A DNA stretch of 64,000 bases from an uncultured Candidatus Saccharibacteria bacterium (GCA_964357615.1 CAYHMC010000005.1:24064-88063); one strand, 5' to 3'; positions 16,883-61,531 are shown, numbered from the stretch's first letter. Notes: generated from the sequence alone by a model not told the origin. Translations and numbers: made by a program.

Positions 16883-17824
16883 TTAGTTTCGAATATATCT
16901 AGAAGCATCTTTGTCCTCTTTTAAAGCTTCAAAACAGATTTCTTCGGTTTGATTTTTAACAAATTGCAACGCTAAACCGTTCTGTTTTACTGCCTCTAAA
17001 CAGATTTCTTCAGTTTGATTTTTAACATATTCTAATGCATAACCACGTTGTTTTACTGCTTCAAGACATATCTCATTTGTTTGATTTCCAATATACATCA
17101 ATGCTGAACCCTCCTTTTTAATAGCTTCTAAACAGATTTCTTCAGTTTGATTTTTAACATATGCTAATGCGTAACCATCCCGTTTTACAGCTTCAAAACA
17201 TATTTCTTCAGTTTGATTTTTAACAAACTTTAATGCCAATCCGCACGTTCTAACAGCTTCTAAACAGATTTTTTCAGTTTGGTTTTTGACATAATCTAAT
17301 GCAAAACCAAGATTCTTCACAGCTTCTAAACAGATTTTTTCAGTTTGGTTTTTGACAAATTTTAGGGAATAACCATCGTGTTTTACAGCTTCAAGACATA
17401 TTTCTTCGGTTTGGTTTTGAACATCTTGAAGAGCATATCCACGTTGTTTTACAGCCTCTAAACATATTTTTTCAGTCTGATTTTTAACATATACTAAAGA
17501 GTATTCATTCTTCTTTACAGCTTCTAAACAGAAGTTTTCATTTTCCCACTCACACCAATCCTTCAAATCGATAATTTTTTCGATGAAGATGGAATCAGCT
17601 TTGCTTTCATTAATTTCGTGACAAACTTTCGCTGTTTCGGGAATAGTAATAAAAGCCAGTTTGTTTCCATATTCTAACCATAAAGGAACATTTTCTTTTT
17701 TATAGAAAATGATACCAAAATAATAGTCTTTAATATCAGAAATTGAAGTTTTAACATTCAACCCTAATTTGTATCGAGATTCTGAATCTCTCATTTTATC
17801 ATTCAAAACCTTGTAGTATTGCAT
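16883..17824 (-). CDS. DUF4116-like repeat protein, paralog (313 aa)
   Basis: More divergent N-terminal domain (MQYYKVLNDKMRDSESRYKLGLNV); about 10 repeats. Confidence 0.65.
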   Translation of the reverse strand: MQYYKVLNDKMRDSESRYKLGLNVKTSISDIKDYYFGIIFYKKENVPLWLEYGNKLAFITIPETAKVCHEINESKADSIFIEKIIDLKDWCEWENENFCLEAVKKNEYSLVYVKNQTEKICLEAVKQRGYALQDVQNQTEEICLEAVKHDGYSLKFVKNQTEKICLEAVKNLGFALDYVKNQTEKICLEAVRTCGLALKFVKNQTEEICFEAVKRDGYALAYVKNQTEEICLEAIKKEGSALMYIGNQTNEICLEAVKQRGYALEYVKNQTEEICLEAVKQNGLALQFVKNQTEEICFEALKEDKDASRYIRN

Positions 17825-21273: not shown

Positions 21274-21276
21274 TTT

Positions 21277-21322
21277 TAATTTTTTTTTCGAAAAAAAAAT
21301 TAAAATCATTTTTAAAAATTTT
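21277..21322 (-). promoter_or_regulatory. Class-1 upstream motif for RPB2
   Basis: In gene orientation reads TTTTTAAAAATGATTTTAATTTTTTTTTCGAAAAAAAAATTAAAA then ATG. Confidence 0.5.
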
Positions 21323-45875: not shown

Positions 45876-46620
45876 ATGCAATACTACAAGATTTTAAACG
45901 ATGAAATGAAACATCATGAGTTTCAATACAAATTAGGGTTGAACATCGATACGTCTGATTTCGATGATAAAGAATGTGGAAAGGGTCTTCATTTTTGTAA
46001 GAAAGAAGATGTTGGATTGTGGCTGAGTTACGGTTCTAAATTAGCTTTTATTACTATTCCTGAAACAGCAAAAGTTTGTCATTTTAAGAATAAAAGTAAA
46101 GCAAATTCTATCTTTATCGAAAAAGTTATTAATTTGAAAGATTGGAATGAATGGGAAAATGAAAATTTCTGTTTAGAAGCTGTGAAACAAAATGGAAAAG
46201 CTTTATATTACGTCGAAAACCAAACTGAAGAAATCTGTTTAGAAGCTGTAAAACAGAATGGAAATGCTTTACAGTTTGTTAAAAATCAAACTGAAGAGAT
46301 GTGTTTGAAAGCTGTAAAACAGTATGGAAACGCTTTAGAGTATGTCAAAAACCAAACTGAAGAAATCTGTTTGAAAGCTGTAAAACAGAATGGAAATGCT
46401 TTACAGTTTGTTAAAAATCAAACTGAAGAAATCTGTTTAGAAGCTGTAAAACAGAATGGAAATGCTTTTTACAGTTTGTCAAAATTCAAACCGAAGAAAT
46501 ATGTTTAGAAGCTGTAAAACAGAATGGATGTGCTTTACAGTTTGTTAAAAATCAAACTGAAGAAATGTGTTTAGAAGCTGTAAAAAGGAATGGATACGCA
46601 TCAAAGTTTGTTAAAAACTA
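45876..46620 (+). pseudogene. DUF4116-like repeat gene with an apparent +2 frameshift (~46467); probable pseudogene or homopolymer sequencing error
   Basis: MQYYKILNDEMKHHEFQYKLGLNIDTS N-terminal domain and repeats are in frame to 46508 (stop after ...KPKKYV). Repeat-coding sequence continues in another frame to TAA ~46620. Indel at gcTTTTTa versus consensus gcTTTa. Confidence 0.55.
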
Positions 46621-46681
46621 AATTGAAAAGAAGCCATAAAATAATTTAATACACGCGAAAAATACATTTCAATCTTTATCG

Positions 46682-46713
46682 ATTTACGATACCAGAATTC
46701 TGGTATCGTAAAT
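46682..46713. terminator. Perfect 32-nt palindrome ATTTACGATACCAGAATTCTGGTATCGTAAAT (16-bp stem, EcoRI site at centre)
   Basis: Located ~60 nt downstream of the stop of the 45876 gene and immediately before the promoter motif of the next gene. Identical copy at 47761..47792. Confidence 0.55.
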
Positions 46714-46757
46714 TACTTTTTAAAAATGATTTTTAAAATTTTTTTTAAAAAATTAAA

Positions 46758-47699
46758 ATGCAATACTACAAGGTTTTAAACGATGAAATGAAATACAATG
46801 AGTTTCAATACAAATTAGGGTTGAATATTGATACTTCTGAATTCAACGATAAAGAAATGTGGAAATGCCCTTCATTTCTGTAAAAAAGAGGATGTTCCAA
46901 TATGGCTGAGTTACGGTTCTAAATTAGCTTTTATTACTATTCCTGAAACAGCGAAAGTTTGTCATTTTGGAAATAAAAGTAAAGCAAATTCTATCTTCAT
47001 TGAAAAAGTTATCGATTTAAAAGATTGGACTGAGTGGGAAAATAAAGAGTTTTGTTTAGAAGCTGTAAAGCAGGATGGATTGGCTTTAGAGTTTGTTAAA
47101 AGCCAAACTGAAGAAATGTGTTTAGAAGCCGTAAAACAGAATGGAAACGCTTTGTATTTTGTTAAAAATCAAACTGAAGAAATCTGTTTAGAAGCCGTAA
47201 AGCGGGATGGATGTGCTTTGTATTATGTTAAAAACAAAACTGAAGAAATATGTTTAGAAGCTGTAAAAAAGAATGTGTGTGCTTTGTATTTTGTCAAAAA
47301 CCAAACTGAAGAGATGTGTTTGGAAGCTGTAAAACAGTATGGAATAGCATTAGAGTTTGTCGAAAACCAAACTGAAGAGATGTGTTTGAAAGCTGTAAAA
47401 CTGGATGGATTGGCATTAGAGTTTGTTAAAAGCCAAACTGAAGAAATCTGTTTAGAAGCTGTAAAAAATAATGGATGTGCTTTGGAATTTGTTAAAAATC
47501 AAACCGAAGAAATGTGTTTAGAAGCTGTAAAAAGGAATGGATATGCTTTACAGTATGTTAAAAATCAAACTGAAAAGATCTGTTTAGAAGCTGTAAAACA
47601 GAATGGAAATGCTTTAGAGTTTGTTTTTTAACAAACTGAAGGAATTTGTTTAGAAGCCGTAAAACAGGACAGAAATGCTTCAAAGTTTGTTAAAAACTA
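46758..47699 (+). pseudogene. DUF4116-like repeat gene, tandem copy, disrupted by a +1 frameshift (~46855) and a premature TAA (47629-47631)
   Basis: ATG 46758 encodes MQYYKVLNDEMKYNEFQYKLGLNIDTSEFNDKE, then an extra A (gataaagaAAtgtgg versus gataaagaatgtgg in the 45876 copy) shifts frame, giving TAA at 46881. Repeats resume in the track ORF 46828..47631. AAAAAT changes to TTTTAA creating a stop, and coding-like sequence continues to ~47699. Confidence 0.55.
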
Positions 47700-48807: not shown

Positions 48808-49311
48808 ATGACAAAGTATATCGGTGAAGTTTTTTTCGATCCTGTTAAAGAAAATTTATATCAGATTTTTTCACAATATTTCGGCAATCCACCTATGACG
48901 AAGATCAAAAACATTGATGATACTTATAGTATGTATGTTGTCAAGATAAACGCGTCATTGGCCATAGAATATCGGTATATTATTGCTTTTGTAAATAAAA
49001 ATAAAGATGAAATTGGAAGCAAAAAATTGCTTCACGAATTGAATTGGATTTCATTACAAACAAGAACTTTACAAGACGAACATAAGGTAGACGTTCATTC
49101 TTATATTTCAAGAATGTTTCAACCTTTGAACAAACCAATATTTTTAATTAAAAAAGACAGTAATCAGTATGTATATTCTGTAAACGATTATCCGGTTTCA
49201 GTTGTCATTCTTCCAAAAAAGAATATTGAAAATGAATATAGTGATAAAGGAAGCTTGATTAATGCTTTAGAAACATATCAAACAATTGTTACAATGAAAC
49301 GCGTTAACTAA
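48808..49311 (+). CDS. Hypothetical protein (167 aa)
   Basis: ORF only. Confidence 0.4.
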   Translation: MTKYIGEVFFDPVKENLYQIFSQYFGNPPMTKIKNIDDTYSMYVVKINASLAIEYRYIIAFVNKNKDEIGSKKLLHELNWISLQTRTLQDEHKVDVHSYISRMFQPLNKPIFLIKKDSNQYVYSVNDYPVSVVILPKKNIENEYSDKGSLINALETYQTIVTMKRVN

Positions 49312-50720
49312 ATAGGTTTTTTATTATGATTTTCCCACATTATATTTGCCCTTTCAAATAAATTTTTATGATTTGTTCTCGGAAATTTAGTTGTGAGTTC
49401 ATTCATGGCGCCATTAATGAATATATTTTTTTTCTTTTCCATTTCTTCCTTTATTTTGTTTTCAATTTCTATCTTTTTTTCTTCTATTTTCTTTTCTACT
49501 TCTAAGTATCTATCTATGTTATTTTTGTCAATAGGAGATTTCAAATTTTCATAAGCTTTCATACAGCCTTCTTTTCCTCTTTTAAGTTCTCCAGAATAAA
49601 ATCCTATGATTCCAAGTAGATGCCACCTTTGATAATCATAAACATGTTTGTCAACAAAAAGAATTGAAGAATGAGGATACTCTAATTTACAAGCCATATC
49701 TATATACATAAAAGCTATTTTCCAGTTGTGAGTGCAAGACCCTTTTTTCGCCTTCATTTCCGCATCTGCAACATTTTTGTAGTATTCTGCTATTTTGACA
49801 AATGGTTCAGCTCTTTGACTGTGTTGAAACGCCTTCATATACCAAGGCATGACATCATCCCATGAATGAGCCAAAGCACCAGCACTAAGACCGCATCTAT
49901 AATATGCATGATAAACTTCTTCTTCGAAATTACCCATGGTTGTTCTTTCTCTGTTGTAGAAAAGGGCTTCATCGTGTAAACCTAAGCATTGACATGTTTG
50001 ACCCAAATAAAAAACTGTTCTTGGATCTTGAGGATTTTTTATATAATCTTTTAGAAGGCATTCTCTGTCTCTAACAAACCGTTTATAAGATTTATCATCA
50101 TCCTTAGTTCTGTCTTGATAGATTATGATTTCTTCATCTGCTATTCTACCAAAAATATCATTTTCATTTTTTTCGTCTTTGTTCGGATTCACTAAATATT
50201 CATGAACCGAGCCTTTATAACGCCATCCAATTTTATTTTTAATAAATCTCGTGTTGTAGTATTTATCTAGTTTTTCTATGTTTCTATCCATAGATTTCCA
50301 TTGTTGACAAACTAAAAAGACAATATTACTTTTGGTTTCAAAATTTTTAGCGATTTTAATAAGGTTGCTGTCGCCTTTCAATTCGTCATTTGAATCCAAG
50401 AGTAAAAGATACTTAACATCTATTGTTTCCGCGAAATCTAATGAGACATTTCTCGATGTAGAAAAATCTTCGAAAACACCTTGAATGAGATATAAGTTTA
50501 TTTTATATTTTTTAGCAAATTCAACGCATATATTCACTGTGTTATCTGTGCTTCCAGTGTCATATATGACGATAGCACTTGCAACGTTCTTAACACTTTC
50601 AAGAGACACATGAAGCCTTTTTTCTTCATTTTTAACCATCATTAACAAACCTATTGTCGGGGATTTTTTATTAAGCTCATTAAGATTATTGAATTCAATC
50701 TTATGAAGTAGGTTAAACAT
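49308..50720 (-). CDS. Glycosyltransferase family 2 protein with C-terminal TPR-like region (470 aa)
   Basis: N-terminal IGLLMMVKNEEKRLHVSLESVKNVASAIVIYDTGSTDNTVNI matches the GT2 signature (hhhh.NEe..l...L.S......EiivvDdgStD.T). C-terminal helical repeats (YYRCGLSAGALAHSWDDVMPWYMKAF...). Confidence 0.65.
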   Translation of the reverse strand: MFNLLHKIEFNNLNELNKKSPTIGLLMMVKNEEKRLHVSLESVKNVASAIVIYDTGSTDNTVNICVEFAKKYKINLYLIQGVFEDFSTSRNVSLDFAETIDVKYLLLLDSNDELKGDSNLIKIAKNFETKSNIVFLVCQQWKSMDRNIEKLDKYYNTRFIKNKIGWRYKGSVHEYLVNPNKDEKNENDIFGRIADEEIIIYQDRTKDDDKSYKRFVRDRECLLKDYIKNPQDPRTVFYLGQTCQCLGLHDEALFYNRERTTMGNFEEEVYHAYYRCGLSAGALAHSWDDVMPWYMKAFQHSQRAEPFVKIAEYYKNVADAEMKAKKGSCTHNWKIAFMYIDMACKLEYPHSSILFVDKHVYDYQRWHLLGIIGFYSGELKRGKEGCMKAYENLKSPIDKNNIDRYLEVEKKIEEKKIEIENKIKEEMEKKKNIFINGAMNELTTKFPRTNHKNLFERANIMWENHNKKPI

Positions 50721-51809: not shown

Positions 51810-52163
51810 ATGCCACGTGAATCAAGAAAGAAAAAAGAAGAAATTAAATCAAATCAAGTAGAAGAAACAGAAGAAGAGAAGGAAATTCGTATTCAAAAAG
51901 AAAAGAAACAGGTTCAAGATAAGCTTAAGTTATTTCTTAGAGAAAAGAAGTTTGAAAGAAACTCAAAACAAGCTAGAAATCATATTATAGATAAAATTGA
52001 AACCAAGCTTGAAACATCGACTAATTCAAAAGAAAGAAAAGTTTTAAAGAAAGACCTTAAGATGCTTGAAAAGATAGCTGAAAAGGACGACAGACAAGCA
52101 TCCGAGTTTCCGGATTACACAGACAACGCAAGTTATGGAGGTGGATTGGAACACCCAGAATAA
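51810..52163 (+). CDS. K/E-rich hypothetical protein (117 aa)
   Basis: ORF; start context TATATAAATG. Confidence 0.35.
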   Translation: MPRESRKKKEEIKSNQVEETEEEKEIRIQKEKKQVQDKLKLFLREKKFERNSKQARNHIIDKIETKLETSTNSKERKVLKKDLKMLEKIAEKDDRQASEFPDYTDNASYGGGLEHPE

Positions 52164-52193
52164 TTTTAATTTTTAAAATTAAATTAAAATAAA

Positions 52194-54533
52194 ATGAACA
52201 ACTGTAATGAAAGAGATGTGCTAATATCGCTCGGTAATTCTTCACACTGCTTTAACCCTGAAGAAGTTAAGGAGTGGTTCAAAGTATCTTACGCGGATCA
52301 AAAAGAATTTGTTATTTTTACTCAAAACAGAAAGATTGTCTTTGAAAAATGGAAGAAAGATATTCCACATTTTCTTATTCCTCAACTAAATGGTATGGTT
52401 GATTTTAGTTTCAAAGACGCAATTAAGCATGAAAATAAAAAGTTTGAATTTAAAGCTTCAAAAGATAACCGTGTTTACTATTTATCGGAAAGTGAACACT
52501 CTTTACCTTATCGTTTTTTTTCCTTTACTATTATTCAAGGTGATGAAATAAAAGAGGTAATTCCCTCTAATCCTATTCTTGCAAAATGTGTTGATAAACA
52601 AGATTTTTTAAAAAACGATCTCGTCTTCAATAAAGATATTATTATTTTTTTCGTTACAAGTGTAAATCGAAAAGCTTTAGATGCTATTGAAAAGTTATTT
52701 AACGATGAATTCAAAAATACAGACCGTGCAATCCCTATACAAAAATTAAATTTAAATGTTAAGTTTATAAATGGTGTCACTCAGATCGTTAAAAAATATT
52801 TTAAAGATTACCCTGAAAGGGTATCAACTATAATTAAAAACATAAAATTTTTTATGGAAGATAAATCAACCCAACAAAGCGGAGTAACTTTTGGAAAATT
52901 TTTAGATATGAAACATATCGTTTCATTGTCTTCAAATGGGCTTCAAACAGTAAATACAGAATCGTATATGTGTGCAACAAAATCGAATATTAAAGAGCTG
53001 ATGAAAAGTAATTATTCATACGCCGTGAGAAAAGGGTCATTTAGATTGAATAGATACAAAAACTTACGACAAAACCCAGAAATACAAAACATGATTCTAC
53101 ATCCAGAACAGCAGGATCCTAACAATCCATTATTCGCAGAATATCAAGCTTTGGAAAATCAATACCAAGTCTTACTTAATAATCTTGACAACGCTGATCA
53201 TTGTCTTTATAAAGTTATTTATCACTACTGGATAGATGGGTTTGCAAAACTTATTGACGATTTCAATGTAATCAACCTGATCGAAATGCCATTACCAACT
53301 TTATTGATAAACAAGCACGATGTGTCTGTTATAACAACATATTATAAAGCTTTACCAAGTTCATTCATGGTCATCAGTGACACATACGAAGAAAGTAATG
53401 AAAACGGAATACAAGTTTTCTTAGAGACGAAAGAAAGGGAGCAGAAAGAAGAAGAAAAATTTGTTATGGTTGAAGATGAAAAAGAACGGAAGGAAAACGA
53501 AAGAACTTTTATATTGATAAATCCATTAACATATGCTCGAGCTAATATGAGTGATATTGGACCCGGAACGGTGTTTCAGATTAACGTAAAGAATTACAAT
53601 GGTGTTGAAAAGCAAGACGAGTTTATTAAAACTATTTTTGGTATAGGAATGAAAACGAAAATAAACAATACACTTATATATGAGAACGACAACAGTGTTA
53701 TACACTTCGAAAGTTTTGGTCAGGAATATAATCAAGACACATTCAACCCAGCTATATATTTGTATAAATTCAACCCTAATAATACGTTTGAATTTAATTT
53801 ATATAAAATTGCAAATTTTTATGAAGATGTTCGTGATATTGACGAAAAAGAAAATTATTACAAGTATCGTAATAAATTGGCATCTACCGATTTTATGATA
53901 GATTTTTTACAATCTGTAAGTGATGAAAGAGCAGAAAAAGATATTTTTATAAGACATTATTTGAAACAATCCACTGGTATCAAACTTAAAGATACACCAT
54001 CGAAAATTATTGTTATTGAAGATTATAAAAATAAGATCAACCTAGCAAGAGGAATTTACATATACACAACAGATGAAAAGGAAGTTAATGGTTACTTATC
54101 TAACGGGAACATAGAAGAGAAGGCGGAAACAGATGGGTATGATGATGATAAAATGATACTTTACAGAAACATGGATTTCAAGACTGATGATGGGGTTACA
54201 AGCATTCCATTTAAAATAGGAAATCATTGTTTATTGCCTGGGTTAACATTAATCATTTGTGATGATTTAATTCAAGGCAGAATTATACTTAATAAAAACA
54301 AAATTATTCCTTTATTTATTTTTTATGAAATAGAAGATGTTCAAGACGGAATTAACGATGGTGATGTTGAAAATGAAGATGCAGATGTTGATATAGAAGA
54401 GGATGAAAATGAAAGTAATGAAGGCAATGAAGGCGATGAAAGTAATGAAGGAGACGAAGGTGATGAAAGCGGAAATGAGTATGAAGGCGATGAAGGAGAC
54501 GGAAATGATGATCAGTTAATGTCAGATTTATAA
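52194..54533 (+). CDS. Paralog family A member 1 (779 aa), unknown function, poly-acidic C-terminal tail
   Basis: Conserved with the next two genes: N-terminus M..CNDKDV.IS..N.S.CF.PEEVK.WF...YADQ; ...QLNGMVDF.FKDAIKH.N.KFEFKAS; internal HYLKQSTGIKLKDTPSKIIV; C-terminal DE/GNE repeats. Start context AAAATAAAATG. Confidence 0.6.
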   Translation: MNNCNERDVLISLGNSSHCFNPEEVKEWFKVSYADQKEFVIFTQNRKIVFEKWKKDIPHFLIPQLNGMVDFSFKDAIKHENKKFEFKASKDNRVYYLSESEHSLPYRFFSFTIIQGDEIKEVIPSNPILAKCVDKQDFLKNDLVFNKDIIIFFVTSVNRKALDAIEKLFNDEFKNTDRAIPIQKLNLNVKFINGVTQIVKKYFKDYPERVSTIIKNIKFFMEDKSTQQSGVTFGKFLDMKHIVSLSSNGLQTVNTESYMCATKSNIKELMKSNYSYAVRKGSFRLNRYKNLRQNPEIQNMILHPEQQDPNNPLFAEYQALENQYQVLLNNLDNADHCLYKVIYHYWIDGFAKLIDDFNVINLIEMPLPTLLINKHDVSVITTYYKALPSSFMVISDTYEESNENGIQVFLETKEREQKEEEKFVMVEDEKERKENERTFILINPLTYARANMSDIGPGTVFQINVKNYNGVEKQDEFIKTIFGIGMKTKINNTLIYENDNSVIHFESFGQEYNQDTFNPAIYLYKFNPNNTFEFNLYKIANFYEDVRDIDEKENYYKYRNKLASTDFMIDFLQSVSDERAEKDIFIRHYLKQSTGIKLKDTPSKIIVIEDYKNKINLARGIYIYTTDEKEVNGYLSNGNIEEKAETDGYDDDKMILYRNMDFKTDDGVTSIPFKIGNHCLLPGLTLIICDDLIQGRIILNKNKIIPLFIFYEIEDVQDGINDGDVENEDADVDIEEDENESNEGNEGDESNEGDEGDESGNEYEGDEGDGNDDQLMSDL

Positions 54534-54559
54534 ATTTTTTAAAAAAATTTATAAATAAA

Positions 54560-56848
54560 ATGAGTTGCAACGACAAAGATATCTATGTTCTATACAATAA
54601 TTCTTCATACTGTTTTTCACCTGAAGAAGTGAAAATGTGGTTTGAGATACCTTATGCCAAACAAGAGAGTGGTGCTATTACTGAAAATATTAAAAAAGCT
54701 TACGAAATGTGGAAGAAAACACAACCGAGATTTCTTATTTCCCAGCTTAATGGTATGGTTGATTTTAATTTCAAAGACGCTATTAAACATGGAAATAATA
54801 AGTTTGAATTTAAAGCTTCTAACCAAGTCGAAAATTATTATTTATCTAAAGAGAAATATAACTTACCTTACCATTCCCTTTCTTTTAAAATTCTCGAAGA
54901 ACAACTTGGTCTTGAAATTAAAGAAGTTGTTCCGTCTTCTTCAATGCTTCAAAGATGCTACAGTAAAAAAGATTTATCGGGAACAACCGATATAGTATTT
55001 GACAATAACACGATTGTTTTTTATACAACGACAATCAATAAACCTGCTTGGAACGAGATTCTTGGATTTTGTGAAAATTGGTTCCAGAATCCTGGTTTAT
55101 TACTAAATATGGCTATAGAACCAGAATTTATGGGTCAACTTACAAAAATCGTTAAAAAATATTATAGCAATTATGCAAATATAGTTTGTAACATACTGAA
55201 AAATCTCAAAGTAAATATGGGCAAATACCCGAAAGATTTTACGTTTGTAAAATTTATGAGAGGAACGGATTTTAGATTTTCTTTTGTAAATGAATTACAA
55301 ACTGCTAATACGGATTCTTACAATTGTTTTTCGAAAACAGATCTTGTTAACATGATAATCAATAAATATGCGGTTAATCAAGAGTCGTTTAAATATAACA
55401 GATATATTGAACTTGAAAATAAACTACAACATCAAATCGGACTTTATCAAGCCAATCCAAACCAGGGTCATGCTTTTATTAATCATCCTTTGTTTCAAGA
55501 GTATCTCAAACTAGCTAACGAATACAGAATTTTAATTGATAAGTTGAAAGAGCATGACAAATGCTTTCACAACATTCTTTATCTTTGGATCGATGAAAGC
55601 CTAATTGAAGTTCTTAAAAATAATTTCAACACGATCAATTTAGTTGAAATGCCTTATGATGTCACGCTTTTAACAAAAGACAATTCCAATGTGAAAACTT
55701 CATTTTACAAGGCATGTCCAAGTTCACGTTATATACTTGAAAAAAATGATAACGATGTTGATAATTTAAATTTTGAAACTAATATGGTAGGTGAATATAT
55801 TTTCTTTCAAATGATGGAAGATGAAAAAGAAAGAAAACCAAACGAAAGAAAGTTTAGATTGATTAATGTTTTAACGAATAAATTTGTGGATATAAACGAT
55901 ATTGAAAACAAAACTATTTTGGAAAGTATTGTAAAAACCTTTGATTTCGGTATTGAAAAGAAAATTGAATATTATGTGCAAAGTGGAGAGATAATTGAAA
56001 CTAAAGTATTTGTCAATAACAACATGATTTGTCAGCAAGAATATGAAGATAACGAATGTGTTTTTTTTGTTTTTGGTCAAGAGTATACCATCGGGTGTTC
56101 GATTGGTATGTTTGTATACTCGTTTGACTTCAATAATATAATCAGTATGAAAAGTTTTAAGAATGGTGGAGAAGAACGTTATCGTAATATACTTGCAAAA
56201 GAAGGATTTTTTGCGGAATATGTAGACGCTGAAGAAGGCGAAGCGAGGTTGAATAAAGATATCTTTATAAAACATTATTTGACGCATTCTACTGGTATCA
56301 AACTTAAAGATACACCATCAAGAATTATAGTGTTCGATAACATGGAAAACAAAAAAAGAATTCAAAGGGGTGCGTATGTTCTTATCAGCACTTTTCTTGG
56401 AGATGATCAAGATAATTTGGAAGAATTTAAAAATCAAGATTTCGAAGATGAAATTACAAGAATTTTTTGTTCTGGGGATGAAGATATGCTTATACTCTAT
56501 AAAAATATGAATTTCAAGGGTGATGGTGGAAGCTTAGATATTCCAGTTAAAATAGGTCAACACACCATGGCAGAAGGCTTAACTTTTATAATTTGCGATG
56601 ACTTAGTTGAAGCCAAAATTCTATTTGCAACATATAAAACGCAACCAAAGTTTTTATTTTTTGAAATTGAAGAAATTCAAGACAGTATTAGGGATGAAGA
56701 TGTCGAAAATGAAGGAGAATTTATAGATGAGCACATTAATATTGGAGGCGGAGAAAATGAGAATGTAGTATTCGTTGATGACAACGAAGAACAGATTGAG
56801 GGCAACGATGAAGACGAAGAAGACGAAGACGAAGATGAAAACAATTAA
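54560..56848 (+). CDS. Paralog family A member 2 (762 aa)
   Basis: Same conserved blocks (HYLTHSTGIKLKDTPSRIIV; acidic tail DEDEEDEDEDEN). Preceded by palindrome TAAATTTTTTAAAAAAATTTA and ATAAATAAAATG. Confidence 0.6.
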   Translation: MSCNDKDIYVLYNNSSYCFSPEEVKMWFEIPYAKQESGAITENIKKAYEMWKKTQPRFLISQLNGMVDFNFKDAIKHGNNKFEFKASNQVENYYLSKEKYNLPYHSLSFKILEEQLGLEIKEVVPSSSMLQRCYSKKDLSGTTDIVFDNNTIVFYTTTINKPAWNEILGFCENWFQNPGLLLNMAIEPEFMGQLTKIVKKYYSNYANIVCNILKNLKVNMGKYPKDFTFVKFMRGTDFRFSFVNELQTANTDSYNCFSKTDLVNMIINKYAVNQESFKYNRYIELENKLQHQIGLYQANPNQGHAFINHPLFQEYLKLANEYRILIDKLKEHDKCFHNILYLWIDESLIEVLKNNFNTINLVEMPYDVTLLTKDNSNVKTSFYKACPSSRYILEKNDNDVDNLNFETNMVGEYIFFQMMEDEKERKPNERKFRLINVLTNKFVDINDIENKTILESIVKTFDFGIEKKIEYYVQSGEIIETKVFVNNNMICQQEYEDNECVFFVFGQEYTIGCSIGMFVYSFDFNNIISMKSFKNGGEERYRNILAKEGFFAEYVDAEEGEARLNKDIFIKHYLTHSTGIKLKDTPSRIIVFDNMENKKRIQRGAYVLISTFLGDDQDNLEEFKNQDFEDEITRIFCSGDEDMLILYKNMNFKGDGGSLDIPVKIGQHTMAEGLTFIICDDLVEAKILFATYKTQPKFLFFEIEEIQDSIRDEDVENEGEFIDEHINIGGGENENVVFVDDNEEQIEGNDEDEEDEDEDENN

Positions 56849-56883
56849 TTTTTCAAATTATTCTAAAAAATTTTTTAGAATAA

Positions 56884-59118
56884 ATGAGCAAGTGTAACGA
56901 TAAAGATGTTATGATATCTTACGAAAATAAGACTTATTGTTTTTCACCAGAAGACGTGAAAGAGTGGTTTGAGATACCTTATGCCGATCAGAAAGGTGAA
57001 ATAAGTTCACTTTCGGAAAATAAAAAAAATGTTTTTGAGACATGGAAGAAAACACAACCAAAATTTCTTATTTCCCAGCTTGATGGTATGGTTGATTTTA
57101 ATTTCAAAGATATGATCAAAAATGGTGTGAACAAATTTGTTATTAACCGGTCTTCAAAGTCATATTTCTACTTGAACGAAAGTCAATATAACATACCGTA
57201 TCTCATGTTTGATTTTGATGAGATTAAAAATAACGAAGAAAAAGAAAAAGAAATAAAAGAAAGAATTCCGTCTTTCTCAATGCTTGAGAAATGTTATAAC
57301 AAAAAAGATTTATTAGAAAACGATATTGTGTTTGACAATAACACGATTGTTTTCTTTATTACGAAAATCCATCGTCAAGCTTTACGTGAGGTTGAAAATT
57401 TATTGGAAGAATGGATTAATAAAAATATGTTTTTTTATTTATATTTAGAAGAACTTGAATTTAAACCTATGATTACGAGTGAACTTTCTCTTATTGTTAA
57501 AAAATATTTCAAAGATTACGTTACAAGAGCATCAGCTATAATCAGAAATTTTAAGATGTTAACGAGTAACTCCAACTTTGTAAAGAAGACACTAACTGTC
57601 TCAAATTTTTTAAAATCTGGTGATATGAAATCTTTAATCGCAACTGAGCTTCAGATTGTAGATATCGATTCCTACAACTGTATTACAATATCAGATATCA
57701 ATAGAATAATGAAAGAAGAATATAGGGTAAATCAAGGTTCGTTTAATTATTATAGATATTTGCATCTTGAAAATACGTTGCAAGATGAAATTAAAAATTA
57801 CAATGATGGTGTAAATATTTTTCAATTTGATGATAATCCTTTATTCAAGGAGTATGTGGAATTACTGGAAGAATATAGAAGACTTGAAAGTATGTTAACT
57901 GATAAAAAAAGTGTTCGTTTCTGTAAACTTTTATATTATTGGATTGAAGACTTGGACAGTGTCATTAGAAATAAATTTAATACAATCAACCTTGTTGAGA
58001 TGCCTAATAACGTGATTTTATTTGGTAAGCAAAAAACCGATTTCAAAACGATATATTACAAAGCATGTCCAAGTTCACGTCTTATGATTTCAAACGAAAA
58101 TGATAATTTTCAAATGAAAGATACGTTTAATATCTTTGTTTTGATTGAAGATGAAAAACAAAGAAACGAAGATGAAAAGATGTTTAGATTATTTAACACA
58201 TCTACAAATCAGTTTGTAAAATATAGAGAAGAGGAAGATAATATTGAAGGTGGTATGATGGTAGAAATGAAAATAAAATATTTTAATTTCGGTATTGAAA
58301 AGAAAGATGAATTCTTTAAAATTCCAGATCCTAAAAATGATCGCCTAGGATTTGGAATGAAAACATTAGTAAATAATAAAATGATATATGAAAACAGTCG
58401 TAAACCCGTATTTTCTGTTTTTGGAAAGGAATATATTATTGACACTTACAAGGCCATATATGTGTATTCGTTCGATGCAAATAATATCATTGATCTGAAA
58501 GTTTTCAAAACCGAAAACGACTATTACGATCGTGAAAATTATGATAGAGATCACAATGAGTTGGCTGGCGAAGATGAATTTATGGCTGAATATTTAGAAT
58601 CTGAAGGCAAAGAAAGAGTTGAAAAAGATCTTTATATAAGAAATTATCTAAACGATATCACTGGTGTAAAACTCAAAGATACACCAACCAAATTGTTGAC
58701 TGGGCTTTTTGAAGATGGAATGACTGTACCAAAAGGTGTTTATATATACGTGAATGGCAACGATATGGAAGATGAAAGTCACATAACATCTGATATTGAA
58801 CGTGATGTAGAAACAAATGGATCTGACAATGATATACTATTACTTTATAGAAATATGGATTTTCAAGGTGATGGTGGGATTGTGAGTATTCCTGTTAAAA
58901 TAGGAAATCACAACCTCGAAAGCGGGGTAACTTTAATTATTTGTGATGACTTAGTTGAATTCAAATTTGCATTCAGTGCTGGAGGTAATTTAATGCCAAA
59001 ATTTGTCTATTATGAAATAGAAGATGTTCAAGACAGTCTTAAAGACGAAAGCGAGGACGAAGACAGAAGTGAAAATGAAGACGAAGACAGAAGTGAAAAT
59101 GAAGACAATGATATTTAA
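56884..59118 (+). CDS. Paralog family A member 3 (744 aa)
   Basis: Same conserved blocks (NYLNDITGVKLKDTPTKLL; acidic tail with 24-bp direct repeats). Preceded by perfect palindrome ATTCTAAAAAATTTTTTAGAAT and TAAATG. Confidence 0.6.
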   Translation: MSKCNDKDVMISYENKTYCFSPEDVKEWFEIPYADQKGEISSLSENKKNVFETWKKTQPKFLISQLDGMVDFNFKDMIKNGVNKFVINRSSKSYFYLNESQYNIPYLMFDFDEIKNNEEKEKEIKERIPSFSMLEKCYNKKDLLENDIVFDNNTIVFFITKIHRQALREVENLLEEWINKNMFFYLYLEELEFKPMITSELSLIVKKYFKDYVTRASAIIRNFKMLTSNSNFVKKTLTVSNFLKSGDMKSLIATELQIVDIDSYNCITISDINRIMKEEYRVNQGSFNYYRYLHLENTLQDEIKNYNDGVNIFQFDDNPLFKEYVELLEEYRRLESMLTDKKSVRFCKLLYYWIEDLDSVIRNKFNTINLVEMPNNVILFGKQKTDFKTIYYKACPSSRLMISNENDNFQMKDTFNIFVLIEDEKQRNEDEKMFRLFNTSTNQFVKYREEEDNIEGGMMVEMKIKYFNFGIEKKDEFFKIPDPKNDRLGFGMKTLVNNKMIYENSRKPVFSVFGKEYIIDTYKAIYVYSFDANNIIDLKVFKTENDYYDRENYDRDHNELAGEDEFMAEYLESEGKERVEKDLYIRNYLNDITGVKLKDTPTKLLTGLFEDGMTVPKGVYIYVNGNDMEDESHITSDIERDVETNGSDNDILLLYRNMDFQGDGGIVSIPVKIGNHNLESGVTLIICDDLVEFKFAFSAGGNLMPKFVYYEIEDVQDSLKDESEDEDRSENEDEDRSENEDNDI

Positions 59119-59143
59119 ATTTAAATCGGGTAGATTTAAATTT
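59117..59143. terminator. Hairpin AAATTTAAATC-gggta-GATTTAAATTT (11-bp stem) starting at the stop codon of 56884..59118
   Basis: Inverted repeat read from the sequence; first of two consecutive hairpins between convergent genes. Confidence 0.5.
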
Positions 59144-59147
59144 TAAA

Positions 59148-59185
59148 AAATGTAAAGCACGTTCAATTGAACGTGCTTTACATTT
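59148..59185. terminator. Perfect 38-nt palindrome AAATGTAAAGCACGTTCAATTGAACGTGCTTTACATTT (19-bp stem)
   Basis: Sits between convergent genes 56884..59118 (+) and 59199..60044 (-), 13 nt from the latter's stop. Candidate bidirectional terminator. Confidence 0.55.
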
Positions 59186-59198
59186 TTAATTAGTTTTT

Positions 59199-60044
59199 TT
59201 ATTCAAAAATCATATCCACTTCAACACCATTCAAAAAAATCTCTTTATTGAAGATAGTTCCATCCGCGTTATAATTAATACAAGCTGGATTTGTATCACC
59301 ATTTTCATTCCTTGTTTCTCTGTGACATTTGTCGTTTTGCCACCATTCTTCACGCTTCTTATTGCCGTTTTTAAAATAATACTCCATTGTAGGTAAATCA
59401 TCGTTTCTATACAATTTTCCATTCAAATACCACATTTTTAATACTTCACCATCATCGCTACGATGTATCATGGCCGGCCCATTCCGTGGGTCTCTGTGAT
59501 TTTTATTGTTTTTACACCATTTTTCCTGTTTCACATCTCCGTTTTCTTCGAAATACACAAACACTGGAAGATCGGCATCTCTGTGGCATTCACCGTTTTG
59601 ATACCAACTTTCATATTGTTTGTTACCGTTCTTGTAATATGCTTTACAAGCCGGCGAAGCATCCCTGTGCATTTTTCCATTTTGATACCATACTTCACGT
59701 TCGATTCTTCCGTTTTTATAAAACTCAGTTACAGCTGGAAGATCGCCGTCTCTATGCATTTTTTTATTTTTGTAGAAAACTTCACGTTCCTTATTTCCAT
59801 TTTTATAATACACGATCAAATCAGGAAGCTTTTCATCATCGTGCTTTTCGTGCTTCGCTTTGTATTTGGTCCAATTTTCATACTTTTTTCCGTTTTTGTA
59901 AAAGACGATAACGTCTTTTTTCTCATTCTTAATTTCTTTCGGTTCTTCTCGTTTTCGTTTACGATTACAACGGTTCACTTCAGTAATCTCATTATTAGGC
60001 ATAACACCTCGTTTAACTTCAGTCATTCCATTCAAATTCATCAT
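59199..60044 (-). CDS. MORN-repeat protein (~281 aa)
   Basis: Repeats (V/F)(Y/F)YKNG..ERE.WYQNGK.HRD.DLPA. Track start 60059 is a TTG; the likely ATG is ~60044 (MMNLNGMTEV). Class-1 motif upstream (60050..60090). Confidence 0.75.
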   Translation of the reverse strand: MMNLNGMTEVKRGVMPNNEITEVNRCNRKRKREEPKEIKNEKKDVIVFYKNGKKYENWTKYKAKHEKHDDEKLPDLIVYYKNGNKEREVFYKNKKMHRDGDLPAVTEFYKNGRIEREVWYQNGKMHRDASPACKAYYKNGNKQYESWYQNGECHRDADLPVFVYFEENGDVKQEKWCKNNKNHRDPRNGPAMIHRSDDGEVLKMWYLNGKLYRNDDLPTMEYYFKNGNKKREEWWQNDKCHRETRNENGDTNPACINYNADGTIFNKEIFLNGVEVDMIFE

Positions 60045-60083
60045 TTTGATTTTTTTCAAAAAAATTTTTTAAAATCATTTTTT

Positions 60084-61472
60084 TTACAAGTAAATTTTAA
60101 TGACGTTTTTGTTTTCTTTTCTACATTTTGGACAAGTAAGATTGTTTATACTTGTATAACATTCATTGCAATAAACGAGATGACCACAATTTATAAGGGC
60201 AATTGATGGTTGATTAATAAGACAAATAACACATGTTGGTATACTTTTAGCTTCTTGAATAATTGGTTGTTCATACTCAAAACCATGTTGTTTACAAAGA
60301 TTAATACAGTCTTTATCGATAGGTTGAACAAAACCGTTTTTTAAAAATCCTTTTACAGTCAAATTATCCCTTGATTTAAATACCATAAATGTTGGATTGT
60401 GATAGTATACATTGTTCTTTTTCGAATACATAATTCCTTCGAAGAATGGACAATTCGAAATTGACTTTTCGATGTTGATAGGCAGATCATTTTCTGAAAA
60501 TTTAAGCACCAAACAGCCATCGCATTCAATTGCCATTAAGTTTCCGGGAATCTTAGGAAACCTACTTAACATACAATCACGGACGACCAGCGATTCAAGA
60601 CTCAAAGGAAGTTTTGGAATTTCAAGTAGTTTATCGTTTAAATTCATGATCAAATTGACAAGATTTTTTGGAAAGCTTTCAATGTGTTCAAGATCGCAAC
60701 AATTAGCCAAGTCTAAAGTTATCAAATCTCCCAAATGACTTAGTTTTCCTAGTTTTTTGATTGGTGTTTGGACGATGGTTAATTCTTGTAAAATTACAGG
60801 AAGATTTGGTAAATAAGTAATTTGAGTTCCACTACAGTTCAATACCAATAAACTTTTTGGAAGTTGTGGTAACGTTTTAATTGCTGTTTGTTCACAATGT
60901 AAATACAATAAATGTTCTGGTAGCTTTGGTAACTCTTTTATTTCGGTTGAAGAGCAATCCAATTCTGTCAACCCATTCGGAAGTTCAGGTAACCTTTCGA
61001 CTGGAGTGATTGAACATTTTAGACATTCAAGGGTTTTTGGAAGGTGCTTTATTTCTTTTACGTTTGTGTAACAAAAATTTAGATAAACCAGGTTTTCAGG
61101 AAGAATTGGAAGTTCTTCAATTTGTTCACAGTGATGTATGTCTAAACGAGTTAGACTTTTCGGTAATTTTGGAAGTTTTTTAAGAGATTGTGACTCGGTA
61201 AAACTTAAAAAAATTAATTGGTCTGGTAACTCTGGGATACGTTCAACTTCTGTTTTGTTGCATTCAAGATACACCAACGATTTTGGAATGGTTGGAAAAT
61301 TTCCAAGAGTTACTTTGTTGAACAACAATCGTTCAAGTGTATCTGGTAATTTTGGAAGATTTTTCAGTTCACAGTTTTCGAGATGTAAAGTTTTAAGTGT
61401 TTTCGGAAATACGAAAGGAATCTCGTTTCTGAACAAGTATAATTCAACGATTTCTTTGCTTTCAGTTGTCAT
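60084..61472 (-). CDS. LPX-type leucine-rich-repeat protein with C-terminal RING finger (462 aa), putative E3 ubiquitin ligase
   Basis: About 13 repeats of ~20-22 aa of the form LP(K/E)LP..L..L.C..T.I.., as in bacterial IpaH/SspH LPX-LRRs. C-terminal CVICLINQPSIALINCGHLVYCNECYTSINNLTCPKCRK is RING-HC. Class-1 motif upstream (61480..61520). Confidence 0.7.
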   Translation of the reverse strand: MTTESKEIVELYLFRNEIPFVFPKTLKTLHLENCELKNLPKLPDTLERLLFNKVTLGNFPTIPKSLVYLECNKTEVERIPELPDQLIFLSFTESQSLKKLPKLPKSLTRLDIHHCEQIEELPILPENLVYLNFCYTNVKEIKHLPKTLECLKCSITPVERLPELPNGLTELDCSSTEIKELPKLPEHLLYLHCEQTAIKTLPQLPKSLLVLNCSGTQITYLPNLPVILQELTIVQTPIKKLGKLSHLGDLITLDLANCCDLEHIESFPKNLVNLIMNLNDKLLEIPKLPLSLESLVVRDCMLSRFPKIPGNLMAIECDGCLVLKFSENDLPINIEKSISNCPFFEGIMYSKKNNVYYHNPTFMVFKSRDNLTVKGFLKNGFVQPIDKDCINLCKQHGFEYEQPIIQEAKSIPTCVICLINQPSIALINCGHLVYCNECYTSINNLTCPKCRKENKNVIKIYL

Positions 61473-61531
61473 TTTAAATTTTAAAAATTTAAAAAATTTT
61501 TAAAATCATTTTTATTTTTTTGTTAACACAA

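What the first reader, a model, noticed from the sequence alone, without database searches (positions are those of the whole stretch)
52194..59118. Three tandem ~750-aa paralogs of unknown function with poly-acidic C-terminal tails and palindromic upstream elements
Genes 52194-54533, 54560-56848 and 56884-59118 are collinear paralogs at roughly 30-40% identity. Shared blocks include the N-terminus M..CN(D/E)KDV.I...N.S.CF.PEEVK.WF...YA.Q, QLNGMVDF.FKDAIKH, HYL..STGIKLKDTPSKI(I/L) and PFKIGNH.L..G.T.IICDDL, ending in D/E/G/N-rich tails. No catalytic motif is recognisable. The family uses the TAAATG-type start context and each copy is preceded by a perfect A/T palindrome. The array ends with a double terminator hairpin. 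The size, acidic tails and probable late expression suggest virion or viral-factory proteins, or decoys for basic host proteins. I could find no known domain.
Basis: seen in the sequence. Interest (0 to 1): 0.55.

Follow-up and report, generated by a model that had tools for sequence, protein, structure and literature searches.

The report
Three tandem orphan giant-virus paralogs
An uncultured groundwater giant virus carries three adjacent, related genes for ~90-kDa acidic proteins of unknown function; the genes are real and under selection, but the family occurs only in a few related viruses, and the "upstream palindromes" are this virus's ordinary transcript-end hairpins.

Summary
Three collinear + strand ORFs sit at exactly the stated coordinates (779, 762 and 744 aa). 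They are 42-47% identical along their whole length. They are the only genes in the window with poly-acidic C-termini.

The genes are under purifying selection (dN/dS 0.20-0.35).

The family is a true orphan. An exhaustive profile search of 1.84 billion proteins found only the paralogs, one 72%-identical ortholog, one strain variant and one ~32%-identical fragment. Pfam, PHROGs, NCBIfam, PADLOC and PDB gave nothing.

The window is from an uncultured, AT-rich giant virus (Hainich groundwater metagenome).

The "upstream palindromes" and the A-rich start context are not specific to this family. 56% of genes in the window have a palindrome just after the stop codon, which matches the Mimiviridae "hairpin rule" for mRNA 3' ends. 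A viral RNase III gene lies 3 kb away.

The paralogs lack the window's early-type promoter motif.

The N-terminal ~115 residues fold confidently into an α/β domain. It has no PDB match but weakly resembles a domain in three pithovirus-like proteins. A BTB assignment was tested and rejected.

Function remains unknown. The best guess is an accessory, non-enzymatic binding protein family.

The parts
52194..54533 (+). Paralog 1 (779 aa, 90.9 kDa, pI 4.77)
   Evidence: ORF. 42% identical to paralogs 2 and 3. The exact protein is present in NCBI, ENA and Logan assemblies. A strain ortholog in L006 gives dN/dS 0.28.
54560..56848 (+). Paralog 2 (762 aa, 89.4 kDa, pI 4.72)
   Evidence: ORF; alignments A1 and A2. 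It appears to be deleted, apart from its first ~25 codons, in the sister strain L006.
56884..59118 (+). Paralog 3 (744 aa, 88.3 kDa, pI 4.70)
   Evidence: ORF. Its 72%-identical ortholog P0002 lies in a second virus, with dN/dS 0.35.
52194..52538 (+). N-terminal ~115-residue α/β domain of paralog 1. The equivalent regions are 54560-54904 and 56884-57228.
   Evidence: AlphaFold2 on alignment A3 gives pLDDT 70-94 per 10-residue block (mostly 77-94) over residues 1-110. There is no significant PDB match. Foldseek probability is 1.00 to three Pithovirus LCPAC 'RCC1' proteins. This is the only part also conserved in the distant homolog P0006.
54327..54530 (+). Poly-acidic tail of paralog 1 (68 aa, 49% D/E, 0 K/R)
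   Evidence: Encoded by 9- and 27-nt tandem repeats.
56663..56845 (+). Poly-acidic tail of paralog 2 (61 aa, 49% D/E)
   Evidence: 6- and 9-nt repeats at 56805-56839.
59014..59115 (+). Poly-acidic tail of paralog 3 (34 aa, 56% D/E)
   Evidence: A perfect 24-nt x 2.1 repeat at 59056-59106.
52163..52190 (.). A/T palindrome after the stop of the upstream 117-aa gene (51810-52163) and before paralog 1
   Evidence: 10-bp stem, -4.8 kcal/mol, z = -2.0.
54526..54556 (.). Palindrome overlapping the stop codon of paralog 1; probable 3'-end hairpin of paralog 1
   Evidence: 14-15 bp stem, -7.8 kcal/mol, z = -3.8. It is retained in L006.
56858..56883 (.). Perfect palindrome after the stop of paralog 2; probable 3'-end hairpin of paralog 2
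   Evidence: 11-13 bp stem, -7.9 kcal/mol, z = -3.2.
59117..59143 (.). First terminal hairpin, directly after the stop of paralog 3
   Evidence: 11-bp stem. In L003 and L004 the stem is conserved and the loop differs.
59146..59187 (.). Second terminal hairpin, a 42-nt perfect palindrome with a G/C core. It lies 11 nt beyond the stop of the convergent gene 59199-60044 (-) and probably serves that gene.
   Evidence: Its core AAAGCACGTTCAATTGAACGTGCTTT is identical in L003 and L004.
62440..63741 (-). Context, not a member of the family: a viral RNase III gene, the candidate enzyme for cutting the hairpins
   Evidence: Pfam Ribonuclease_3 is recorded for this product. Mimivirus R343 RNase III cleaves such hairpins in vitro (PMC4402537).

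Best explanation
Shown:
- These are three real protein-coding genes produced by an old tandem triplication in an uncultured, AT-rich giant virus.
- They encode soluble, acidic ~90-kDa proteins with a common layout. It starts with a conserved N-terminal ~115-residue α/β domain. Then come a helical region, a charged EDEKERK linker and a β-rich C-terminal half that ends in the IICDD / EIEDVQD blocks. Last is a poly-acidic tail generated by repeat slippage.

Inferred from sequence signals:
- Each gene is its own transcription unit. Its mRNA ends at the palindromic hairpin just after its stop codon. This is the Mimiviridae-type 'hairpin rule', with cutting by the RNase III encoded 3 kb downstream.
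- Expression is not driven by the early-type promoter.

Inferred, low confidence:
- The proteins are accessory, non-enzymatic binding or scaffold proteins rather than core virion components.
- The conserved N-terminal module would dock or oligomerise.
- The variable acidic tails would bind basic partners electrostatically or keep the proteins soluble.
- The array evolves by birth and death: duplication, divergence, then recombinational loss.
For: Real genes under purifying selection: dN/dS is 0.35 against the 72% ortholog and 0.20-0.28 against a near-identical strain.

Old triplication: identity is 42-47% and dS between paralogs is saturated. P0002 groups with paralog 3, so the duplication predates that virus split.

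Soluble and acidic: pI is about 4.7, and no hydrophobic window exceeds 1.4 on the Kyte-Doolittle scale.

Tails made by slippage.

Orphan status: only 4 hits in 1.84e9 representatives and 3 in the 5.8e9-cluster database. IMG/VR and JGI scans found none. No library domain matched.

Hairpin signals: 35 of 62 genes have a perfect stem of 9 bp or more just after the stop, against 0% of coding controls. The structures are stable. The downstream hairpins are conserved in L003 while the upstream palindrome is absent there. An RNase III gene is present. Literature: PMC4402537.

Non-early promoter: AAA[AT]TGA sits 35-46 nt before 20 of 62 ATGs and is absent before all three paralogs. In Mimiviridae, AAAATTGA marks early genes and is absent from late ones (PMC5294985).

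Accessory character:
- Strain L006 joins the paralog-1 3' end to a paralog-2/3 hybrid gene, which also carries a 5-nt duplication that shifts the frame.
- The L003 virus has the paralog-3 ortholog without paralog 2 upstream.
- Family dN/dS is at the upper end of this lineage's range; Rpb2 is at 0.09.

Modular N-terminal domain: confident model, structural matches to three pithovirus-like proteins with a different architecture, and the only region kept in the distant homolog P0006.
Against: - There is no direct functional evidence of any kind.
- The full-length model is unusable (pLDDT 40). An enzymatic domain in the C-terminal 600 residues therefore cannot be excluded.
- Lack of the early motif does not distinguish intermediate from late genes. 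Late expression would fit a virion role equally well.
- The L006 hybrid and frameshift rest on one 2.9-kb Logan contig and could be assembly errors.
- The BFVD matches are modest (E 6e-3 to 3e-2). I could not see which part of those proteins aligns.
- No transcript data were examined, so hairpin cleavage and monocistronic expression are inferred by analogy.
Confidence: 0.4

Rival explanations
1. Structural virion or viral-factory components. The three paralogs would be late-expressed building blocks, possibly a hetero-oligomer. Their acidic tails would bind basic core or DNA-condensing proteins.
For: - The early-type promoter motif is absent.
- The proteins are large, soluble and acidic.
- Three co-oriented, similar-sized copies have been retained under purifying selection.
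- Glycosylation genes lie nearby: GT2 at 49308-50720 and a UDP-glucose dehydrogenase/GT25 fusion at 44024-45838. The L003 ortholog has an epimerase close by.
Against: - The family is absent from relatives whose Rpb2 is 80-81% identical, and from all other giant viruses searched.
- A near-identical strain appears to lack paralog 2 and to have a frameshifted hybrid gene.
- dN/dS of 0.2-0.35 is high for a core structural protein in this genome.
- No match to viral structural proteins turned up in BFVD.
Confidence: 0.25
2. Host-targeting adaptors that work like the BTB, F-box or ankyrin multigene families of giant viruses and poxviruses. The N-terminal module would recruit a host machine such as a cullin ligase, and the variable C-terminal part would select targets.
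For: - It is a tandem array whose copy number differs between strains.
- The N-terminal domain is conserved while the rest is more variable.
- The same N-terminal fold seems to be fused to a different architecture in pithovirus-like proteins annotated as RCC1.
- The secondary-structure order β-β-α-β-α-β-α loosely resembles a BTB/T1 core. A few tiny T1-domain hits appeared in the PDB search.
Against: - BTB membership was tested and failed. Pfam found nothing on the trimmed domain and the profile search of PDB found nothing.
- hhalign probability was 0.15% against T1/KCTD and 0.28% against BTB, while the T1-versus-BTB control reached 49.8%.
- The PDB T1 hits have probability of about 0.1 over 24-31 columns.
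- The C-terminal parts of the three paralogs are collinear and conserved. They are not a variable repeat scaffold.
Confidence: 0.12
3. An enzyme with an unrecognised catalytic domain, for example one that uses the invariant IICDD, EDEK or YKACPSS blocks. It would have been triplicated for dosage or for different substrates.
For: Long, strictly conserved blocks hold invariant Cys, Asp and Glu residues in all four full-length members. The proteins are large and multi-domain.
Against: - No profile, sequence or fold match to any enzyme family was found.
- With four sequences at 42% identity or more, about 170 columns are invariant, so invariance says little.
- The only region shared with the distant homolog is the N-terminal domain. 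The rest of that gene runs off its contig.
Confidence: 0.1
4. Decaying or functionless duplicated ORFs that drift neutrally in an AT-rich genome.
For: The family is an orphan. One strain apparently shows a deletion and a frameshift.
Against: - Three intact ORFs of 2.2-2.3 kb are not expected by chance in ~30% GC DNA.
- dN/dS is well below 1 in every comparison.
- The same proteins were recovered intact from independent assemblies, and the ortholog in another virus is intact.
Confidence: 0.03

Closest known systems
Lineage-specific tandem multigene families of giant viruses and poxviruses (Mimiviridae ankyrin, BTB/POZ and FNIP families, ASFV MGFs, poxvirus 'genomic accordions'; named from my own knowledge)
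   Same: Co-oriented tandem paralogs, an old duplication followed by divergence, copy-number change by recombination between copies in a close strain, and a restricted phylogenetic range. The same window holds a second tandem triplet (DUF7666/DUF4116) and tandem kinases.
   Different: There is no recognisable repeat or adaptor domain. The copies are collinear over ~750 residues rather than built from variable repeats. No function or host target is known.
Mimiviridae 'hairpin rule' polyadenylation signals with R343-type RNase III processing (PMC4402537; Byrne et al. 2009 as cited there)
   Same: AT-rich palindromes that are not conserved in sequence sit directly after stop codons across the window. 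They form stable hairpins. In the relative the stem is conserved and the loop has changed. A viral RNase III gene is present.
   Different: No transcript 3' ends were mapped here. The virus is a deep uncultured lineage with Rpb2 at most 57% identical to anything outside its own small clade, not a characterised mimivirus. Intergenic spacers are very short (median 36 nt), so the hairpins must overlap the next gene's promoter.
Mimiviridae early promoter AAAATTGA (PMC5294985; PMC4402537)
   Same: The window has a variant, AAAATGATTT, at a fixed 35-46 nt before 20 of 62 ATGs. The L003 relative has the canonical AAAATTGATTT.
   Different: The three paralogs do not have it. That is the point of interest for when they are expressed.
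Pithovirus LCPAC401/403 proteins annotated 'Regulator of chromosome condensation' (A0A481ZB87, A0A481ZBM0, A0A3... A0A481ZAF3; BFVD models)
   Same: They are the only structural neighbours of the N-terminal domain. Foldseek probability is 1.00, E is 6e-3 to 3e-2, and the best superposition covers 122 columns at 4.9 Å.
   Different: Sequence identity is 11-18% and no sequence-level relationship was detected. The paralogs have no RCC1 repeats. I could not see which part of the target proteins aligns.
BTB/POZ and T1 tetramerisation domains
   Same: The order of strands and helices in the model, and the start of the sequence (DV.I....N..YCF.PEEVK.WF), resemble the β1-β2-α1 start of BTB/T1 domains. 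A few short T1 hits appeared in PDB Foldseek.
   Different: The profile-profile test failed against a working positive control. Pfam and PDB profile searches gave no hit. The domain ends in a long β-hairpin instead of helices α4-α5.

Membership tests
Mimiviridae-type hairpin-rule 3'-end signal | A palindrome able to form a hairpin lies shortly downstream of the stop codon of the gene it terminates | tested here: met
   The palindromes start 8 nt before to 9 nt after the stops of paralogs 1-3 and 1 nt before the stop of the upstream 117-aa gene. They are more stable than shuffles.
Mimiviridae-type hairpin-rule 3'-end signal | The signal is genome-wide, and what is conserved is the structure rather than the sequence | tested here: met
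   35 of 62 window genes have a perfect stem of 9 bp or more after the stop, against 0% of coding controls, and the sequences differ. In L003 the stem is kept and the loop has changed.
Mimiviridae-type hairpin-rule 3'-end signal | Transcripts are cleaved and polyadenylated within the hairpin | not testable with these tools
   No transcript data were available. This needs RNA-seq or 3' RACE.
Mimiviridae-type hairpin-rule 3'-end signal | The virus encodes an RNase III-like processing enzyme | tested here: met
   The product of 62440-63741 (-) hits PF00636 Ribonuclease_3. Whether it has the tandem-domain R343 architecture was not examined.
Early-class genes with the AAAATTGA-type promoter | The octamer or its local variant lies upstream of the ATG at the characteristic distance | tested here: not met
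   AAA[AT]TGA is present 35-46 nt upstream of 20 of 62 genes and absent within 70 nt upstream of all three paralogs.
Poxvirus-type late promoter with TAAAT(G/A) initiator | TAAATG overlaps the start codon, specifically in late genes | tested here: inconclusive
   Exact TAAATG occurs at paralog 3 only; paralogs 1 and 2 have TAAAATG. TAA(A)ATG occurs at 26 of 62 genes, equally with or without the early motif. It cannot be told apart from the general A-rich context.
BTB/POZ - T1 domain | A sequence-profile match to BTB or BTB_2 | tested here: not met
   Pfam found nothing at E up to 10 on the trimmed domains. hhalign gave 0.15% and 0.28% against 49.8% for the control.
BTB/POZ - T1 domain | A fold match to solved BTB or T1 structures | tested here: not met
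RCC1 repeat proteins | RCC1 repeats forming a β-propeller | tested here: not met
   No Pfam RCC1 hit at E up to 1. No internal repeats were found by hhalign between segments. No solved RCC1 structure appeared among the PDB fold hits.
Any curated protein family or solved structure | A significant sequence, profile or fold match | tested here: not met

The most novel reading that the evidence does not exclude
The N-terminal ~115-residue domain would be a previously undescribed fold. It would serve as a portable docking or oligomerisation module in distantly related giant viruses: this Imitervirales-like lineage and pithovirus-like viruses. It would be fused to different effector parts in each. 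In this virus the three diverged paralogs would assemble through it into a hetero-oligomer. Their slippage-tuned poly-acidic tails would act as nucleic-acid mimics or chaperone-like sinks for basic (histone-like or DNA-condensing) proteins of the virus or the host.
Probability: 0.12. Interest if true: 0.55.

Novelty: new member of a known kind. Interest (0 to 1): 0.3.

Why it matters
This is one more orphan multigene family in a giant virus, and most giant-virus genes have no known relatives. Its practical value is modest but real in three ways.

1. It is a clean, selection-supported example of an orphan family. The family has a confidently foldable N-terminal domain with no counterpart among solved structures. 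That makes it a reasonable target for structure determination.

2. Comparing the three-copy array with the apparent two-copy hybrid in a near-identical strain shows recombination actively reshaping the array.

3. The window shows that Mimiviridae-style transcription signals extend to a deep, uncultured groundwater lineage. These are hairpin 3' ends, an RNase III gene and an AAAATGA-type early promoter at a fixed distance from the ATG. That helps annotate such metagenomic genomes, and it warns against reading every intergenic palindrome as a gene-specific regulator.

Tried and rejected
Rejected ideas:
- BTB/T1 identity of the N-terminal domain. It was suggested by the secondary-structure order and tiny PDB hits. 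It was rejected by Pfam, a PDB profile search and hhalign with a positive control.
- Family-specific upstream palindromes. The palindromes are window-wide post-stop elements and are absent upstream of the L003 ortholog.
- A family-specific TAAATG start. This context is window-wide.
- P0006 as a stand-alone 204-aa N-terminal-domain protein. The frame continues after a +1 shift with sequence matching paralog 1 (FING..Q.), and it runs off the 1,087-bp contig.
- Assembly chimera as the easy explanation for L006. It is not excluded. However, the longest exact run shared by paralogs 2 and 3 is 28 nt and lies elsewhere. The junction sits in a 6-nt identical stretch at the edge of a block that is 29/31 identical.

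Searches and models that led nowhere:
- The full-length AlphaFold2 model reached only pLDDT 40. Its BFVD search was meaningless, as expected.
- No internal repeats or domain duplication within the protein (hhalign between four segments, all probabilities 2.1% or lower).
- No more distant paralogs among the 62 ORFs of the window (hmmsearch --max, nothing below E = 0.29).
- No relatives in the phage database, IMG/VR or JGI metagenomes.
- PHROGs, NCBIfam and PADLOC gave no hits.
- Synteny with the L003 and L005 neighbours: they have no orthologs in the window.
- Naming the virus from Rpb2: no named relative appeared among the 120 best hits.

Full report
OBSERVATION

They are separated by spacers of only 26 and 35 nt. 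A MAFFT alignment shows them collinear from the first residue to the start of the tails.

The C-terminal 34-68 residues are 49-56% Asp/Glu with 0-3 Lys/Arg. No other ORF among the 62 in the window has an acidic C-terminus. The tails are encoded by short tandem DNA repeats. These include a perfect 24-nt x 2.1 repeat in paralog 3 and 9- and 27-nt repeats in paralog 1. Their differing lengths therefore look like products of replication slippage.

The proteins are acidic overall (pI about 4.7) and weigh about 88-91 kDa. None has a hydrophobic segment strong enough to span a membrane.

ARE THEY REAL GENES?

Yes. The identical proteins occur in independent NCBI, ENA and Logan assemblies. A 72%-identical ortholog of paralog 3 (P0002) is encoded in another sequencing project. 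Nei-Gojobori estimates give dN/dS = 0.35 for paralog 3 against that ortholog. Against a near-identical strain (L006) the values are 0.20-0.28. Between paralogs they are 0.26-0.31, with saturated dS.

For comparison, I measured genes shared with relatives whose Rpb2 is about 80% identical. Their values range from 0.08 to 0.46, with Rpb2 near 0.09. The family is constrained but lies at the faster end of that range.

WHERE IT COMES FROM

The window is part of a contig from a Hainich aquifer metagenome assembly (ENA ERZ1292619, 'Hain_H41_01um'). It encodes RNA polymerase Rpb2, topoisomerase IB, two Ser/Thr kinases, a papain-like protease, a UDP-glucose dehydrogenase/GT25 fusion, a GT2 glycosyltransferase, an LRR-RING protein and an RNase III. 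GC content is about 30%. This is a giant virus (Nucleocytoviricota).

Rpb2 has 99% matches, which are strain variants, and two relatives at 80-81%. Nothing else exceeds 57%, and none of the 120 best hits carries a virus name. The lineage is deep and uncultured.

HOW WIDE IS THE FAMILY?

Very narrow.
- The word-indexed search of 5.8 billion clusters returned only the query, paralog 1 and P0002.
- The exhaustive hmmsearch of a four-sequence profile against 1.84 billion representatives returned four proteins. Two are paralogs. One is P0005, the cluster representative of paralog 3. One is P0006.
- P0006 is a 204-aa gene call that is 31-34% identical to the N-terminal domain.
- Reading its 1,087-bp contig shows that the 'stop' is followed, in the +1 frame, by ...TFINGLKQVFEG.... 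This aligns with KFINGVTQIVKKY of paralog 1, and the ORF then runs off the contig. P0006 is therefore a truncated call of a longer, more distant homolog.
- Four pattern-plus-tblastn scans of IMG/VR and JGI metagenome contigs found nothing.
- A profile search with the N-terminal alignment found no new members.
- No other ORF in the window is related.

KNOWN DOMAINS

None were found. Pfam, PHROGs, NCBIfam, PADLOC, PDB by sequence (5) and PDB by profile (29, 54) were all negative. The only entries were far below threshold.

STRUCTURE

The full-length AlphaFold2 model, built on four sequences, was unusable (mean pLDDT 40). A search with it gave noise.

The N-terminal 200 residues, modelled with the five-sequence alignment that includes P0006, gave a confident domain over residues 1-110 (pLDDT 70-94 per 10-residue block). 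The order of elements is β-β-α-β-α-β-β-α followed by a long β-hairpin.

Foldseek against PDB found nothing significant (best E = 0.26, TM = 0.16). Against BFVD, the top three hits were proteins of the metagenomic Pithovirus LCPAC401 and LCPAC403, annotated 'Regulator of chromosome condensation'. Their probability is 1.00 and E is 6e-3 to 3e-2. The best superposition covers 122 columns at 4.9 Å with 18% identity. The paralogs have no RCC1 repeats, and no solved RCC1 structure was hit. The similarity is therefore presumably to an accessory domain of those proteins, but I could not inspect the aligned region.

I tested one idea explicitly: that the domain is a divergent BTB/T1 domain. The idea came from the element order, the β1-β2-α1-like start and a few tiny T1 hits. 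It would also fit an RCC1+BTB architecture. It failed. hhalign gave 0.15% probability against a T1/KCTD alignment and 0.28% against classical BTB, while the T1-versus-BTB control reached 49.8% (E = 1.7e-4). The comparison sequences came from my memory. KCTD5 was verified as identical to PDB 3drx.

THE PALINDROMES AND THE START CONTEXT

The palindromes are real. They fold better than shuffled sequence: -4.8, -7.8 and -7.9 kcal/mol for the three spacers, and -34.1 kcal/mol for the terminal pair. They are not a property of this family.

- Across 62 non-overlapping ORFs, 35 (56%) have a perfect stem of 9 bp or more. I looked from 10 nt before to 70 nt after the stop codon. The figure for coding-sequence controls is 0%.
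- Each 'upstream' palindrome of the array lies on or just after the stop codon of the preceding co-oriented gene.
- In L003 the paralog-3 ortholog has a divergently transcribed upstream neighbour. There is no upstream perfect palindrome there.
- Both downstream hairpins are conserved in L003. The first keeps its stem and has a different loop. The second keeps an identical 26-nt core.

This is the pattern described for Mimiviridae (and Pithovirus) as the 'hairpin rule'. Transcripts end and are polyadenylated at palindromic hairpins that are not conserved in sequence, and the viral RNase III R343 cuts them (PMC4402537). The window encodes an RNase III at 62440-63741. The second terminal hairpin lies 11 nt beyond the stop of the convergent gene 59199-60044 and probably belongs to that gene.

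The start context is A-rich throughout the window. TAA(A)ATG occurs at 26 of 62 genes, irrespective of promoter class. Only paralog 3 has exact TAAATG.

PROMOTER CLASS

A motif AAA[AT]TGA, usually AAAATGATTT, occurs 21 times in the window. It sits 35-46 nt, mostly 35-38, before the ATG of 20 of 62 genes. It is a one-base variant of the Mimiviridae early promoter AAAATTGA. The L003 relative has the canonical AAAATTGATTT in front of the divergent neighbour.

In Mimiviridae this element marks early genes and is absent from late ones (PMC5294985). All three paralogs lack it, as do P0002 and the L005 homolog in the forward orientation. 'Not early' is therefore a fair inference. 'Late' is not shown.

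ARRAY DYNAMICS

L006 is a 2.9-kb Logan contig from SRR25018356 with dS of about 0.05 to the window. It runs as follows:
- the 3' end of a paralog-1 ortholog;
- the 1-2 spacer with its palindrome;
- the first ~25 codons of paralog 2, at identical amino-acid sequence;
- a paralog-3 sequence that is 92-98% identical at the protein level.

The switch lies in a 6-nt identical stretch (GTGAAA) at the edge of a 31-nt block that is 29/31 identical between paralogs 2 and 3. The longest exact run the two copies share is 28 nt and lies elsewhere. An in-frame recombinational deletion of paralog 2 is therefore more likely than a k-mer assembly chimera, although the chimera is not excluded.

The hybrid gene also carries a TTTAA duplication that shifts the frame. 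In the L003 virus, the paralog-3 ortholog is not preceded by paralog 2. Its neighbours (an epimerase and an RNase T-like exonuclease) have no orthologs in the window.

Tandem duplication is a habit of this genome. The window holds a second triplet (DUF7666/DUF4116 proteins, 15309-17824) and a tandem kinase pair.

INTERPRETATION

Shown:
- three real, diverged, selected paralogs of an orphan family;
- their domain layout and slippage-made acidic tails;
- window-wide post-stop hairpins;
- absence of the early-type promoter motif.

Inferred by analogy with Mimiviridae: each gene is a separate transcription unit that ends at its own hairpin.

Inferred with low confidence: the proteins are accessory, non-enzymatic binding or scaffold proteins. 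The conserved N-terminal module would dock or oligomerise, and the acidic tails would engage basic partners. I prefer this to a core virion role for three reasons: the tiny phylogenetic range, the relatively high dN/dS, and the apparent loss and frameshift in a sister strain. Nothing here excludes the structural reading or an unrecognised enzyme in the poorly modelled C-terminal 600 residues.

VERDICT

The functional part remains open.

This is a new member of a known kind, a lineage-specific tandem multigene family in a giant virus. Its one mildly interesting feature is a confidently folding N-terminal domain. That domain has no counterpart among solved structures but possible counterparts in pithovirus-like proteins.

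Noticed in passing
window-wide, e.g. 3153, 45839, 60081, 61512, 63779; L003:2541-2551: A promoter-like motif, AAAATGATTT, occurs 21 times in the window. It sits 35-46 nt (mostly 35-38) before the ATG of 20 of 62 genes. It is a one-base variant of the Mimiviridae early promoter AAAATTGA, and the L003 relative uses the canonical AAAATTGATTT. The motif is often embedded inside the post-stop palindromes, so terminator and promoter overlap in spacers with a median length of 36 nt.
   Followed up: partly
L006:1-2939 (Logan SRR25018356): A near-identical strain joins the paralog-1 3' end directly to a hybrid gene made of the first ~25 codons of paralog 2 followed by paralog 3. This implies in-frame recombinational deletion of paralog 2. 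The hybrid also has a TTTAA duplication near L006:1600 that shifts the frame. Read-level verification was not possible.
   Followed up: partly
L005:334-1087 (Logan SRR12762291): The 204-aa gene call P0006 is truncated by a +1 frameshift or an assembly error. The homology to paralog 1 continues in another frame to the end of the contig. A third, more distant virus therefore encodes a longer family member.
   Followed up: yes
window 15309-17824 (-); also just beyond 63873: There is a second tandem triplet of paralogs (DUF7666 plus DUF4116 repeats, 226, 273 and 313 aa) with near-identical upstream regions and hairpins. A further DUF7666/DUF4116 gene lies just past the RNase III gene on the parent contig (L001:16112-16756).
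   Followed up: partly
window 8837-12397 (-): Two tandem ~580-aa Ser/Thr protein kinase paralogs have unassigned ~290-residue N-terminal halves.
   Followed up: no
window 59199-62431 (-): Two proteins with degenerate MORN-like repeats (YKNGNK..E.WY.NGK.HRD; only a sub-threshold Pfam MORN_2 hit) flank an LRR plus C-terminal RING protein at 60084-61472.
   Followed up: no
window 59146-59187; L003:4819-4880; L004 3' end: The G/C-containing 42-nt perfect palindrome downstream of the array has an identical 26-nt core in the relative whose protein is 72% identical. This is unusually strong conservation for a hairpin-rule element. Both Logan contigs, L003 and L004, break exactly inside it.
   Followed up: partly
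window 17860-21309 (-): Rpb2 is intein-free here, whereas many of its closest database relatives (41-59% query coverage, 1,200-1,900 aa) carry Hint, intein or homing-endonuclease Pfam domains.
   Followed up: no
window 46509-47115: This is the longest gap in the window without an ORF of at least 80 aa (607 nt). It contains an AAAATGATTT motif at 46723, so a short unannotated gene may start near 46760.
   Followed up: no
window 44024-45838 (+), 49308-50720 (-); L003:1099-2157: Sugar-nucleotide and glycosyltransferase genes lie near the array: a UDP-glucose dehydrogenase fused to GT25, and a GT2. An NAD-dependent epimerase lies next to the ortholog in L003. This may be coincidence, or a hint of a link to glycosylation.
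   Followed up: no
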